Virus record (IMG/VR): IMGVR_UViG_3300009130_000012
Coordinates: 1-64,000 of that record
Reading direction: 5' to 3' (one strand)
DNA: 64,000 nucleotides
Source of the DNA: a virus
Part shown: piece after piece, positions 1,383 to 3,053 of the stretch
How positions within the stretch are numbered: position 1 is the first letter of the stretch
Layout of the letters: every line of letters starts with the position of its first letter
Notes under the pieces: generated by a model
What the model saw: only the letters and a program-made list of their open reading frames with translations
Database searches by the model: none
Told to the model about the DNA's origin: nothing
Program-made: the position numbers and the translations under genes

Positions 1383-1459
1383 TGGGTCTGGAGGGAATTG
1401 AACCCGCATGTCACCAGTTACGCTTTCTACTGGTTATGAGCCAGAGGCGATACAGACCC
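1383..1459 (-). tRNA. tRNA with CAT anticodon (probably Ile2) and rearranged D-arm connectivity
   Basis: acceptor GGGTCTG/CAGACCC with A73; anticodon arm CTGG-CTCATAA-CCAG; T arm GCGGG-TTCAATT-CCCTC; D-arm-like AGCGTAACTGGT lies 3' of the anticodon arm. Confidence 0.8.
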
Positions 1460-1464
1460 TTAAG

Positions 1465-1546
1465 CACGGAAGAGTAGAGTCGAACTACTAGGGGTACGTT
1501 ACCCACGGTTTTGGAGACCGCTTATCTCACCAATGAAAGCTTCCGT
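1465..1546 (-). tRNA. tRNA-Trp(CCA) with long variable arm
   Basis: acceptor ACGGAAG/CTTCCGT with G73; GCGGT-CTCCAAA-ACCGT; variable stem GGGTA-ACG-TACCC; T arm AGTAG-TTCGACT-CTACT. Confidence 0.85.
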
Positions 1547-1548
1547 GT

Positions 1549-2457
1549 TTATTTATTATATTTTCTTTCCCATTTTCTAATCGCATTATCACTAACACCA
1601 TACTTTCTACCAGTACCTCTATAACCCAATTCTTTAATGTCTTCCAATAATACTTCATACGGTGGACGTTCTACTTTTCGTTGTGATAACGACATAGCTA
1701 TTTGTTTATTAGTCCTACCACCATTAACTCGCCTTTCTTCATCTAATTTAATTTTATTACGAGCTTGTCTACTAATATATTTTTCTATCGGATATACAAT
1801 ATACTTTTCATTCGAAATTATAGTTTCAGCTAAGATTTTTATTATCTCATCGGTTTTGTTTAAAACATTAGTTGCATGAAATCTAATGATTCTCCAACCT
1901 TCTTTATGTAAAAGTTTATCTTTTCTCTTATCCCTTTCCCTAACATCACTATTACCATGTTGACTCCCGTCTATTTCTATGGCTACCTTAATATCTACAA
2001 AAGCAAAATCTATAAAATAAGGAAACACACAATATTCTCTAACAATCTTAAATTTTTTATTATAGTCCAAATTTTCTAGCAACTCTTTAAAAATTTTTTC
2101 TGGGTAACTCATGTTTTTTTGTCTCCATGCGGTCTTATCTGGATTATTTCGCATGTACTCTAACCTTATCTCACGTAATTTAGCCTTTGTTTCATTACTA
2201 TGTTTAAAATTTTCACTATATAGTTCTCTACCTAATTTATTCGCTTCCTTAGTTGTCCGTTTTTTATTACCTATTATAGTAACGACTGACGATTTCCCAA
2301 TACTATATTTTTTAGCTAACTTATTTATCGATAAACCTTTATTTAGATAATCTGACATCACATCAGCACTAATAATCTGTATTTTATGACATGCTTTCTC
2401 ATGAGCAGCTAACCCACCCTTATTATTAAATGACTTATTACAATACCTACAATTCAT
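1549..2457 (-). CDS. free-standing homing endonuclease (DUF559/Vsr-like PD-(D/E)XK domain with Zn-finger, NUMOD3-like and HTH parts) inside the tRNA array
   Basis: CRYC...HEKAC; KHSNETKAKLRE; FIDFAF..KVAIEIDGSQH...DKRKD..L..EGWRIIRF; C-terminal GRKYGVSDNAIRKW. Confidence 0.85.
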   Translation of the reverse strand: MNCRYCNKSFNNKGGLAAHEKACHKIQIISADVMSDYLNKGLSINKLAKKYSIGKSSVVTIIGNKKRTTKEANKLGRELYSENFKHSNETKAKLREIRLEYMRNNPDKTAWRQKNMSYPEKIFKELLENLDYNKKFKIVREYCVFPYFIDFAFVDIKVAIEIDGSQHGNSDVRERDKRKDKLLHKEGWRIIRFHATNVLNKTDEIIKILAETIISNEKYIVYPIEKYISRQARNKIKLDEERRVNGGRTNKQIAMSLSQRKVERPPYEVLLEDIKELGYRGTGRKYGVSDNAIRKWERKYNK

Positions 2458-2521
2458 ATAAGTGTTTTTATATAAATAGTAAATAATTGTAAAACTAACG
2501 TCCTAACCTAATAAAAAAAAG

Positions 2522-2606
2522 TACTGCCGATGGGGTTCGAACCCACACGTTCCATAAGGAACCCAGATTGAAAGTCTGGTTGCTTAACCAATTTGCATAC
2601 AGCAGC
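2522..2606 (-). tRNA. tRNA with Glu anticodon (TTC) on a long-variable-arm, Leu-like body
   Basis: GCTGCTG/CGGCAGT with A73; D arm TGC-AAATTGGTTAA-GCA; CCAGA-CTTTCAA-TCTGG; variable stem GTTCC-TTAT-GGAAC; GTGGG-TTCGAAC-CCCAT. Confidence 0.85.
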
Positions 2607-2616
2607 ATAAAAAAAG

Positions 2617-2701
2617 TGTGTGAGGAGGGATTCGAACCCCCAAGACTAATAAAAGTATAGCATTTACAGTGCTACGAGCCAACCAGTTGCTCAACTCACA
2701 C
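2617..2701 (-). tRNA. tRNA-Tyr(GTA)
   Basis: GTGTGAG/CTCACAC with A73; GAGC/GCTC D stem; TAGCA-CTGTAAA-TGCTA; long variable region; GGGGG-TTCGAAT-CCCTC. Confidence 0.92.
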
Positions 2702-2709
2702 AATACATG

Positions 2710-2783
2710 TGGAATAGGTGGGTCATGCTCCCACAACCCTCGGTGTGCAAAACCAAGGTACGAGCTACTTGTTTATCTACCCC
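2710..2783 (-). tRNA. tRNA-Ala(TGC) with non-canonical D and T loops
   Basis: GGGGTAG/CTATTCC with G3:U70 and A73 (Ala identity); TTGGT-TTTGCAC-ACCGA; T arm GTGGG-AGCATGA-CCCAC. Confidence 0.8.
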
Positions 2784-2795
2784 ATAATTTCATTG

Positions 2796-2866
2796 CGGTT
2801 CATAACGGTTATGCTCCGTTTCCTTCACGGTGACAGCGTGATATTCTACTATTATACTAATGAACC
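2796..2866 (-). tRNA. tRNA-Asp(GTC) with non-canonical T loop
   Basis: GGTTCAT/ATGAACC with G73; TCACG-CTGTCAC-CGTGA; AACGG-AGCATAA-CCGTT. Confidence 0.85.
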
Positions 2867-2903
2867 AAAATATTTTTCAACATGTCAAATAACTTCTCTT
2901 CTG

Positions 2904-2976
2904 TGGTATGGGTTGGTACCGCCCCAACATATCTGGTTTTTCAGACCAGCGCATGAACTTTCATTGCTACCACACC
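2904..2976 (-). tRNA. tRNA-Phe(GAA) with non-canonical T loop
   Basis: GGTGTGG/CCATACC with A73; GCA/TGC D stem; CTGGT-CTGAAAA-ACCAG; GTTGG-GGCGGTA-CCAAC. Confidence 0.87.
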
Positions 2977-2992
2977 ATTAAATTTTAAACAT

Positions 2993-3026
2993 AAAAAAAC
3001 CCGACTAAATTTCTTCAGTCGGGTTT
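2993..3026 (-). terminator. attenuator terminator (3:4 hairpin) upstream of the tRNA array
   Basis: minus strand AAACCCGACTGAA-GAAA-TTTAGTCGGGTTT-TTTT, ending about 16 nt before tRNA-Phe. Confidence 0.88.
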
Positions 3027-3053
3027 CACACTACACAATCAATTTATACTAAA

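What the first reader, a model, noticed from the sequence alone, without database searches (positions are those of the whole stretch)
2710..2976. Three adjacent tRNAs share a remodelled elbow (T loop AGC/GGC, D loop AG instead of GG)
The Ala, Asp and Phe tRNAs have T loops AGCATGA, AGCATAA and GGCGGTA instead of TTCRANY. All three lack the D-loop GG and have AG instead (CAAGTAG, AATAGTAG, GAAAGTT). Stems, anticodons and identity elements (Ala G3:U70, Asp G73) are intact. The parallel G18-to-A and U55-to-G changes, with 54/58 being A/U or G/G, look like compensatory selection rather than decay. Inference: an alternative elbow that avoids T54/Psi55 modification or elbow-reading host nucleases and sensors.
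Basis: partly seen in the sequence, partly recalled or inferred. Interest (0 to 1): 0.7.

Follow-up and report, generated by a model that had tools for sequence, protein, structure and literature searches.

The report
Phage tRNAs with a rebuilt elbow
Three neighbouring tRNA genes of a marine jumbo phage replace the near-universal elbow contact G18-U55 with a co-varying A18-G55 and re-pair positions 54 and 58, a design that arose repeatedly in related phages and that I did not find described in the papers searched.

Summary
On the minus strand lie tRNA-Phe(GAA) 2976-2904, tRNA-Asp(GUC) 2866-2796 and a tRNA-Ala(UGC)-like gene 2783-2710. Their T loops are GGCGGUA, AGCAUAA and AGCAUGA, and their D loops carry AG where GG normally stands. 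G19, C56 and G53:C61 are kept. The next two tRNAs of the same cluster have ordinary elbows.

Among 188 reliably parsed unique tRNAs from related jumbo-phage contigs, U55 goes with a D-loop GG in 166 of 167. G55 goes with AG and no GG in 20 of 21, and the last case is ambiguous. Positions 54/58 are U/A, A/U or G/G. On a tree built without the two loops, the G55 state changes at least 12 times.

Orthologues that are near-identical elsewhere differ only in these loops. The Asp gene of a 642-kb phage is the clearest case. In a complete 318-kb relative, Asp, Ala and Phe exist only in the variant form.

The design matches riboswitch-type T loops, which have G at position 2 and an intercalated adenosine. 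It also occurs in small-genome bacteria.

Caveat: the window's Ala has almost no D stem and standard finders miss it.

The purpose (escaping modification enzymes or nucleases) is untested. This scan noted the same A18/G55 design earlier on other DNA, and I found no published description.

The parts
2904..2976 (-). tRNA-Phe(GAA), 73 nt, no encoded CCA. T loop GGCGGUA (G54 G55 C56 G57 G58) at 2923-2917. A18 G19 at 2959-2958.
   Evidence: RF00005 42.7 bits. Cloverleaf parse. 35.1 bits against the variant-elbow model R1. Fold z-score -2.75.
2796..2866 (-). tRNA-Asp(GUC), 71 nt, G73. T loop AGCAUAA (A54 G55 C56 A57 U58) at 2815-2809. A18 G19 at 2850-2849.
   Evidence: ARAGORN. RF00005 45.4 bits. 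Orthologues with the same elbow lie in 17 IMG/VR contigs. In the family alignment 97.8% of cells are paired and 9 pairs change on both sides.
2710..2783 (-). tRNA-Ala(UGC)-like gene, 74 nt, with G3:U70 and A73. T loop AGCAUGA at 2729-2723. A18 G19 at 2766-2765. The D stem is degenerate (2 of 4 pairs).
   Evidence: Not called by ARAGORN or Rfam. Own parse. R1 18.9 bits, E 2e-4. In a roughly 90%-identical relative the gene body is conserved while the spacers carry indels.
2617..2701 (-). tRNA-Tyr(GUA) with a canonical elbow (D loop with GG, T loop UUCGAAU). Serves as the in-operon contrast.
   Evidence: ARAGORN and RF00005 51.5 bits.
2522..2606 (-). Class II-bodied tRNA with anticodon UUC and a canonical elbow (GG, UUCGAAC). 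Serves as the in-operon contrast.
   Evidence: RF00005 54.4 bits.
2996..3027 (-). Terminator-like hairpin with a T run, 20 nt upstream of the Phe 5' end.
   Evidence: Its function was not tested.

Best explanation
These are decoding tRNAs of a marine T4-like jumbo phage whose elbow is built to a second design. In the standard elbow G18 slots into the T loop and contacts U55, and U54 pairs with A58. Here an adenine at 18 partners a guanine at 55. The 54-58 pair is swapped to A-U (Asp, Ala) or replaced by G-G (Phe).

The outer G19-C56 pair, R57 and G53-C61 are unchanged. The stacking surface used by RNase P, the CCA enzyme and the ribosome should therefore be preserved (inferred).

This is the arrangement normal in riboswitch T loops, which have G at loop position 2 and an intercalated adenosine. 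GGNRG resembles a known rRNA T loop.

Shown here: the sequence pattern, its co-variation, its repeated independent origin, and purifying selection on the genes.

Inferred: the 3D contacts, aminoacylation and use in translation.

Direct chemical consequence: no m5U54, no pseudouridine 55, no Gm18 and no m1A58, because the substrate bases are absent. Any protein that reads U54-U55 or G18 would also not recognise these tRNAs.

The reason for the design is open. My leading guess, at roughly one chance in three, is insensitivity to a T-loop- or elbow-directed tRNase, or independence from the host's T-arm enzymes. The Ala gene may be impaired because its D stem is nearly gone.
For: - Sequence and cloverleaf.
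- Co-variation in the unique tRNAs of related jumbo-phage contigs: U55 with a D-loop GG in 166 cases and without GG in 1; G55 with AG and no GG in 20 cases; G55 with GG in 1 case, which is ambiguous (D loop CGGAGCG). Positions 54/58 are U/A 167, A/U 17, G/G 4. Fisher p about 1e-24.
- Tree built from stems and anticodon loop only: the G55 state changes at least 12 times. Independent pairs on supported branches go the same way 6 of 6 times.
- The nearest canonical neighbour of a variant usually has the same anticodon. Identities are Ala 0.85-0.91, Val 0.85, Lys 0.72-0.81 and Pro 0.74. Variants with other anticodons score only 0.5-0.64.
- The Asp orthologue in GenBank LR756502.1 is 55/57 identical outside the two loops but has GG and AUCGAAA.
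- A 2.7-kb contig carries the variant Asp next to a canonical orthologue of the variant Ala.
- In the complete 318-kb relative, Asp, Ala and Phe exist only as variant genes.
- In the Asp family all 5 anticodon-stem pairs change on both sides.
- Riboswitch T loops have the consensus YGNRA with an almost exclusively adenosine intercalator, and an rRNA T loop GGAAG exists (paper 10.1101/2022.12.26.521914).
- Cellular tRNAs with UGC T loops and AG at the 18/19 place of the D loop occur in small-genome bacteria.
Against: - There is no expression, processing, charging or structural data.
- A terminator-like hairpin sits directly upstream of Phe, and no convincing promoter was found between it and the genes.
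- The Ala gene lacks a proper D stem and is missed by ARAGORN and Rfam.
- The window's own Ala and Phe sequences have no counterpart in IMG/VR. Their conservation rests on near-identical contigs and one low-depth relative, in which Phe is replaced by other sequence.
- Only 1-5 of about 10-25 tRNAs per phage carry the design. That fits poorly with a general escape from a nuclease that cuts every T loop.
- Small-genome bacteria with G55 tRNAs mostly still encode TruB.
Confidence: 0.75

Rival explanations
1. The alternative elbow is a near-neutral second solution with no special purpose. Phage tRNA genes are backed up by host tRNAs, so selection is relaxed enough to cross the two-step valley (G18A plus U55G). 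Once across, ordinary purifying selection keeps the new pair.
For: - The design is a minority in every phage, at 1-5 genes.
- Which isoacceptors carry it differs between relatives.
- It also occurs in small-genome bacteria that keep TruB.
- Intermediate 54/58 states with canonical 18/55 exist: AUCGAAA, AUCGUUA and GUCAGUA, all with GG.
Against: - At least 12 state changes converge on the same motif within one phage clade.
- Mismatched combinations are virtually absent. Among about 188 sequences there is no clear A18/U55 or G18/G55.
- T5 tRNAs are all canonical.
- Published summaries describe G18, U54 and U55 as conserved or nearly universal (PMC7912444; PMC11214086). So relaxed selection alone does not usually yield this state.
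Confidence: 0.35
2. The three genes are decaying pseudo-tRNAs left over in a phage tRNA cluster.
For: The window's Ala has a degenerate D stem and is not recognised by standard tools. The Asp fold z-score is weak at -1.5.
Against: - The loop changes are correlated rather than random.
- Stems keep pairing through compensatory changes.
- The anticodon loops, U33, purine 37 and the identity elements are intact.
- The Asp orthologue is conserved in 17 contigs from different metagenomes.
- The variant genes are the only Asp, Ala and Phe genes of a complete relative.
Confidence: 0.07
3. They are tRNA-shaped RNAs kept away from the ribosome. Examples would be amino-acid donors for non-ribosomal transfer, as with the cell-wall tRNA-Gly of Staphylococcus, or processing signals.
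For: Staphylococcal non-proteinogenic tRNA-Gly species also lack G18 and U55 (PMC4574755).
Against: - Those species also lose G19 and C56, carrying U18U19 or C18U19. The phage tRNAs keep G19:C56.
- At least eleven anticodon families carry the design.
- Variants replace rather than accompany the canonical gene of the same anticodon.
Confidence: 0.05

Closest known systems
Canonical bacterial and phage elongator tRNA (Rfam RF00005), e.g. the tRNA cluster of phage T5
   Same: Cloverleaf with 7/4/5/5 stems and a 7-nt T loop. G19:C56, R57, G53:C61, U33 and purine 37 are present. The genes are clustered, lack an encoded CCA, and have a homing endonuclease among them.
   Different: G18 becomes A, U55 becomes G, and U54:A58 becomes A:U or G:G. 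All T5 tRNAs parsed here are canonical.
T loops of FMN and cobalamin riboswitches (consensus YGNRA with an intercalated adenosine) and the rRNA T loop GGAAG
   Same: G at loop position 2 (tRNA 55), a purine at position 4 (tRNA 57), and an adenine available to intercalate (A18). The GGCRG loops of Phe and Asn resemble GGAAG.
   Different: Here the motif sits in a tRNA and keeps the tRNA-specific G19:C56 pair. In the window, positions 1/5 are A/U or G/G rather than Y/A. Relatives with UGCAA or UGCGA loops fit the consensus fully.
Eukaryotic initiator tRNA-Met (A54, purine-purine 54-58 pair)
   Same: A purine at 54 with a non-U:A 54-58 pair. The AUCGAAA loop of the Asp orthologue in LR756502.1 has the same A54/A58 combination.
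   Different: The initiator keeps U55 and G18. The phage genes are elongators with U58 or G58.
Non-proteinogenic tRNA-Gly of Staphylococcus (cell-wall synthesis)
   Same: Bacterial tRNAs that lack G18 and U55.
   Different: They also lack G19 and C56, belong to one amino acid only, and are diverted from translation. The phage tRNAs keep G19:C56 and span many amino acids.
A18/G55 tRNAs noted earlier by this scan (a soil phage tRNA set, Verrucomicrobial tRNA arrays, a Patescibacteria tRNA-Ala)
   Same: The same A18/G55 co-variation with G19:C56 kept. I saw it independently in small-genome bacteria.
   Different: Here only some genes of each cluster are converted. The 54-58 pair is also swapped (A:U) or G:G. 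The conversions can be traced to separate isoacceptor lineages, with an orthologous intermediate.

Membership tests
tRNA (Rfam RF00005) | Score at or above the gathering threshold of 29 bits | tested here: met
   Phe 42.7 bits and Asp 45.4 bits. Not met for Ala, which gives no hit even at E up to 1.
tRNA (Rfam RF00005) | Cloverleaf with paired acceptor, D, anticodon and T stems | tested here: met
   Phe and Asp: all four stems are present, each with one D-stem mismatch. Ala: acceptor, anticodon and T stems are fine, but the D stem has only 2 of 4 pairs.
tRNA (canonical elbow) | G18, U54, U55 and A58 present | tested here: not met
   A18 and G55 in all three. Positions 54/58 are A/U, A/U and G/G.
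tRNA (canonical elbow) | G19:C56 pair, purine 57 and G53:C61 | tested here: met
   Present in all three genes and in all 21 G55 tRNAs of the relatives. Note that the scan itself required G53, C56 and C61.
Riboswitch-type T loop (YGNRA plus intercalating A) | G at loop position 2 and a purine at position 4 | tested here: met
   G55 and R57 in all three. The consensus is taken from the paper read.
Riboswitch-type T loop (YGNRA plus intercalating A) | Pyrimidine at position 1 and adenine at position 5 | tested here: not met
   The window has A/U or G/G. The feature is met in relatives: UGCAAUU and UGCGAUU and the bacterial UGC loops.
Riboswitch-type T loop (YGNRA plus intercalating A) | An adenosine physically intercalated between positions 4 and 5 and contacting G2 | not testable with these tools
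   A18 sits at the right place in the sequence and co-varies with G55. No RNA 3D modelling or probing was available.
Staphylococcal non-proteinogenic tRNA type | Loss of G19 and C56 as well as G18 and U55 | tested here: not met
   G19 and C56 are retained. The feature is taken from PMC4574755.
Functional aminoacylated decoding tRNA | Mature, CCA-tailed, charged and used on the ribosome | not testable with these tools
   No RNA run holds the region. The support is evolutionary only.

The most novel reading that the evidence does not exclude
The rebuilt elbow is a counter-defence. By removing U54-U55 and G18 while keeping the outer G19:C56 surface, the phage makes selected tRNAs invisible to a tRNase or sensor that reads the T loop or elbow. 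The nuclease could be the host's, or the phage's own host-tRNA-destroying enzyme. Translation of phage genes would then continue while canonical tRNAs are cut. A T-loop-specific tRNase is known: CdiA-CT of Burkholderia pseudomallei E479, which cuts between the conserved T and pseudouridine (PMC9086364).
Probability: 0.2. Interest if true: 0.85.

Novelty: new variant of a known kind. Interest (0 to 1): 0.7.

Why it matters
G18, U54 and U55 are described as conserved in tRNAs of all three domains, and m5U54 and pseudouridine 55 as the most conserved tRNA modifications (PMC7912444, PMC11214086).

A natural, repeatedly evolved, co-varying replacement shows that the tRNA elbow has at least one other workable design. 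That design is borrowed from the T-loop grammar of riboswitches and rRNA.

It gives structural biologists a natural double-mutant cycle. It gives tRNA-modification researchers tRNAs that cannot be substrates of the enzymes that modify U54, U55 and G18 (TrmA, TruB and TrmH in E. coli). It gives phage biologists a candidate route for tRNAs to escape elbow-reading enzymes.

There is also a practical point. ARAGORN missed two of the three genes and Rfam one, so phage tRNA repertoires are probably under-counted.

Tried and rejected
- No RNA holder was listed among public runs for the region. Expression could not be examined.
- Read laying returned contigs only. They were used for sequence confirmation and for one relative.
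- Pattern scans of IMG/VR for the window's own Ala and Phe T arm plus acceptor found nothing.
- blastn of the cluster against GenBank phages found no close homologue of the three genes.
- Phage T5 was checked as a possible precedent. All its T loops are canonical.
The putative host phylum could therefore not be surveyed.
- The only cellular phylum reachable was that of a MAG holding a stray phage-like contig. The phylum is unnamed. I infer that it is Patescibacteria-like from genome sizes of 0.5-2 Mb only.
- TruB was sought in five phage records and not found. A CCA-adding enzyme was found in one. Neither result explains the design.
- Literature searches found no description of natural A18/G55 tRNAs. 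The long tRNA-array paper (PMC8421152) does not mention the elbow.
- A sigma-70 promoter scan was at background level.
- The first alignment, A1, mis-gapped the 5' ends and was not used for a model.

Full report
**What is there.** The window is the first 64 kb of a 100,844-bp IMG/VR virus record that CheckV rates about 30% complete. It has about 31% G+C and encodes T4-type terminase, portal and major capsid proteins. It is therefore a fragment of a roughly 300-kb jumbo phage. Near-identical DNA occurs in seawater and marine metagenomes.

A tRNA cluster lies on the minus strand at the left end of the contig. In transcription order it holds:
- Phe(GAA) 2976-2904
- Asp(GUC) 2866-2796
- an Ala(UGC)-like gene 2783-2710
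- Tyr(GUA) 2701-2617
- a class II-bodied tRNA with anticodon UUC 2606-2522
- a DUF559-type endonuclease ORF 2457-1549
- a long-armed tRNA with anticodon CCA 1547-1465
- an odd CAU tRNA 1459-1383

**Check of the observation.**
- T loops: GGCGGUA (Phe), AGCAUAA (Asp), AGCAUGA (Ala).
- D loops: UGAAAGUUC, AAUAGUA, AAGUAGCUC. None has GG, and each has AG at the place of G18 G19.
- G19, C56, purine 57 and G53:C61 are retained.

The Tyr and UUC tRNAs, 8 and about 100 nt further on in the same cluster, have ordinary GG D loops and UUCGAA T loops. The change is therefore gene-specific and not a property of the genome.

Rfam scores Phe at 42.7 bits and Asp at 45.4 bits. ARAGORN finds only Asp.

The Ala gene is found by neither tool. 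Its acceptor stem (with G3:U70), anticodon stem and T stem are good, but its D stem has only two Watson-Crick pairs in either possible register. Contigs assembled independently from two other runs are identical over 2450-3000, so the Ala sequence is not an assembly error.

**Relatives.** The capsid protein finds hundreds of IMG/VR contigs at up to 61% identity, and several carry tRNA clusters. A pattern taken from the Asp T arm and acceptor end hits 17 IMG/VR contigs from different metagenomes. All have an AGCRUNA T loop and an AG D loop.

A cloverleaf scan of my own does not use the D-loop or T-loop consensus. It found the same elbow in tRNAs reading Ala, Asp, CAU, Phe, Ile, Glu, Val, Asn, Lys and Pro.

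**Co-variation.** The counts in the unique tRNA-like sequences from the window and these relatives are:
- U55 with a D-loop GG: 166
- U55 without GG: 1
- G55 with AG and no GG: 20
- G55 with GG: 1. This is a Pro tRNA whose 7-nt D loop CGGAGCG puts AG at positions 18-19 by position, so it is ambiguous.

Fisher's test gives p about 1e-24.

Positions 54/58 are U/A in 167, A/U in 17 and G/G in 4. The remaining three are low-scoring or odd cases.

The two couplings are separable:
- U54-G55...A58 occurs with A18 (Ile, CAU).
- A54-U55...U58 and G54-U55...G58 occur with GG (Ser, Gln and Thr; Asn; Val, Asp and Phe).
- A54-G55...U58 and G54-G55...G58 occur with A18.

**Independent origins.** I compared the variants with canonical tRNAs over 53 stem and anticodon-loop positions. 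The nearest canonical tRNA of a variant usually has the same anticodon: Ala 0.85-0.91, Val 0.85, Lys 0.72-0.81, Pro 0.74. Variants with other anticodons are only 0.5-0.64 identical.

I then built a tree of 146 class I tRNAs from those positions alone. On it the G55 state changes at least 12 times, loss of GG 11 times, and the 54/58 state 13 times. In phylogenetically independent pairs on supported branches, loss of GG follows G55 in 6 of 6 cases, with sign test p about 0.03. There are 12 such pairs if all branches are used.

Three direct examples:
- The Asp gene of the 642-kb uncultured phage LR756502.1 is 55/57 identical to the variant Asp outside the two loops. The two differences form a compensating pair in the anticodon stem. 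It has D loop AAUGGCUA and T loop AUCGAAA.
- Val(UAC) in two relatives shares its D stem and most of its T stem, yet carries AAUGGAA with UUCAAUU in one and AAUAGAA with AGCAUAA in the other.
- A 2.7-kb contig has the variant Asp beside a canonical orthologue of the variant Ala.

**Are they working genes?**
- The Asp family keeps 97.8% of its stem cells paired. Nine pairs change on both sides, including all five anticodon-stem pairs. None of 500 shuffles reaches this.
- In the complete 318-kb relative, Asp, Ala and Phe are present only as variant genes among about 25 tRNAs.
- Identity elements are in place: Ala G3:U70 and A73; Asp G73, G10 and C38; Phe A73, U20 and U59.
- In a roughly 90%-identical relative from marine sediment, the Ala body has five substitutions. 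Two turn G:U pairs into G:C. The flanking spacers carry indels. This rests on a single low-depth contig.

There is no direct evidence of expression. No RNA run holds the region.

**How it probably works.** In the standard elbow, C61, A58, G18, R57 and the G19:C56 pair form one stack. [quoted passage not shown]

T loops outside tRNA mostly use a different grammar. In FMN and cobalamin riboswitches the consensus is YGNRA, and the base that intercalates between positions 4 and 5 is almost always adenosine. An rRNA T loop GGAAG is also known (10.1101/2022.12.26.521914). Translated into tRNA numbering, that is G55 with A18, and G54-G55...G58.

So the phage tRNAs appear to have exchanged the tRNA-type T-loop/receptor pair for the riboswitch-type pair while keeping the outer G19:C56 platform. 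This is an inference from sequence. No RNA 3D tool was available.

A chemical consequence is certain. Without U54, U55, A58 and G18, these tRNAs cannot receive m5U54, pseudouridine 55, m1A58 or Gm18. They also cannot be substrates of the enzymes that make these. In E. coli, two of those enzymes, TrmA and TruB, also act as tRNA chaperones and affect charging and translation (PMC11214086).

**Why the design exists is not settled.** A T-loop-specific tRNase is known, which makes nuclease escape conceivable. CdiA-CT E479 cuts between the conserved T and pseudouridine (PMC9086364).

Two observations argue against a general escape. Only 1-5 tRNAs per phage are converted, and the set differs between relatives.

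The design is also not confined to phages. A model built from seven variant tRNAs was run on 151 genomes of a phylum of 0.5-2-Mb bacteria. It found Val, Ala, Gly, Cys and initiator-like tRNAs with UGC T loops and AG at the 18/19 place of the D loop (two of these D loops also contain a GG). Three of four such genomes still encode TruB. The phage records searched encode no TruB.

A near-neutral second solution, reached because phage tRNAs are backed up by host tRNAs, therefore remains a serious rival. Against it stand the many convergent conversions within one clade and the near-absence of mismatched 18/55 combinations.

**Comparison with what is known.**
- Eukaryotic initiator tRNA has A54 with an A54-A58 pair but keeps U55 and G18.
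- Staphylococcal cell-wall tRNA-Gly species lose G18 and U55 but also lose G19 and C56.
- T5 tRNAs are canonical.
- An Aeromonas T5-like phage has a Phe tRNA with the 54/58 swap only.

I found no paper describing natural A18/G55 tRNAs.

Earlier notes of this scan report the same design in a soil phage, in Verrucomicrobial tRNA arrays and in a Patescibacteria tRNA-Ala. I read them after obtaining my own results. They agree with mine but are not independent proof.

**Verdict.** The proposed purpose is untested. The window adds three things to the picture: partial conversion within one operon, an additional 54/58 swap or G:G pair, and traceable independent conversions with an orthologous intermediate.

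Noticed in passing
window 1465-1547 (-): A tRNA with anticodon CCA on a selenocysteine-tRNA-like body: 8-bp acceptor stem, long D stem with a 4-nt loop, long variable arm, and a canonical UUCGA T loop. It scores 41.2 bits on Rfam tRNA-Sec, below the 47-bit cut-off.
   Followed up: no
window 2522-2606 (-): A class II (long variable arm, A73) tRNA body carrying the Glu anticodon UUC. A 77%-identical stretch lies in the 642-kb phage LR756502.1.
   Followed up: no
window 1383-1459 (-): A CAU tRNA-like gene with almost no D arm and an 18-nt insert after the anticodon arm (RF00005 29.3 bits). A stretch of a crAss-like Kehishuvirus is 85% identical.
   Followed up: no
window 1549-2457 (-): A DUF559/REase-like endonuclease ORF (302 aa) sits inside the tRNA cluster, as homing endonucleases do in T5.
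   Followed up: partly
window 2996-3027 (-): A strong terminator-like hairpin with a T run lies only 20 nt upstream of the first tRNA (Phe).
   Followed up: no
L082 12509-12631, 12706-12826, 14066-14172 (-): A related phage has tRNA-like genes interrupted by about 50 nt in the anticodon region (RF00005 24-33 bits). These are possibly intron-bearing tRNAs.
   Followed up: no
L109, L112, L117, L121 (Lys, Asn and Phe tRNAs); L129 (T5 tRNA-Thr): Several phage tRNAs have A8 with U14 instead of U8 with A14. This looks like a swap of another tertiary reverse-Hoogsteen pair.
   Followed up: no
L151, L159 (small-genome bacteria); L121 Lys: T loops with C55 (UCCAAxx, UCCGAUU) occur together with a normal GG D loop. 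This is a third state of the 18/55 contact.
   Followed up: no
L127 4120-4194 (+), Aeromonas phage vB_AdhS_TS3: The annotated tRNA-Phe of a cultured T5-like phage has T loop AUCGUUA (A54/U58 swap) with a normal GG. It could serve as an experimentally tractable example of the 54/58 swap.
   Followed up: partly
L130/L131 (GTDB MAG contig, 2669 bp): A short contig carrying phage-type tRNAs (variant Asp, canonical Ala, Met) is binned in a 0.8-Mb bacterial MAG. It is probably a phage fragment binned by mistake.
   Followed up: partly
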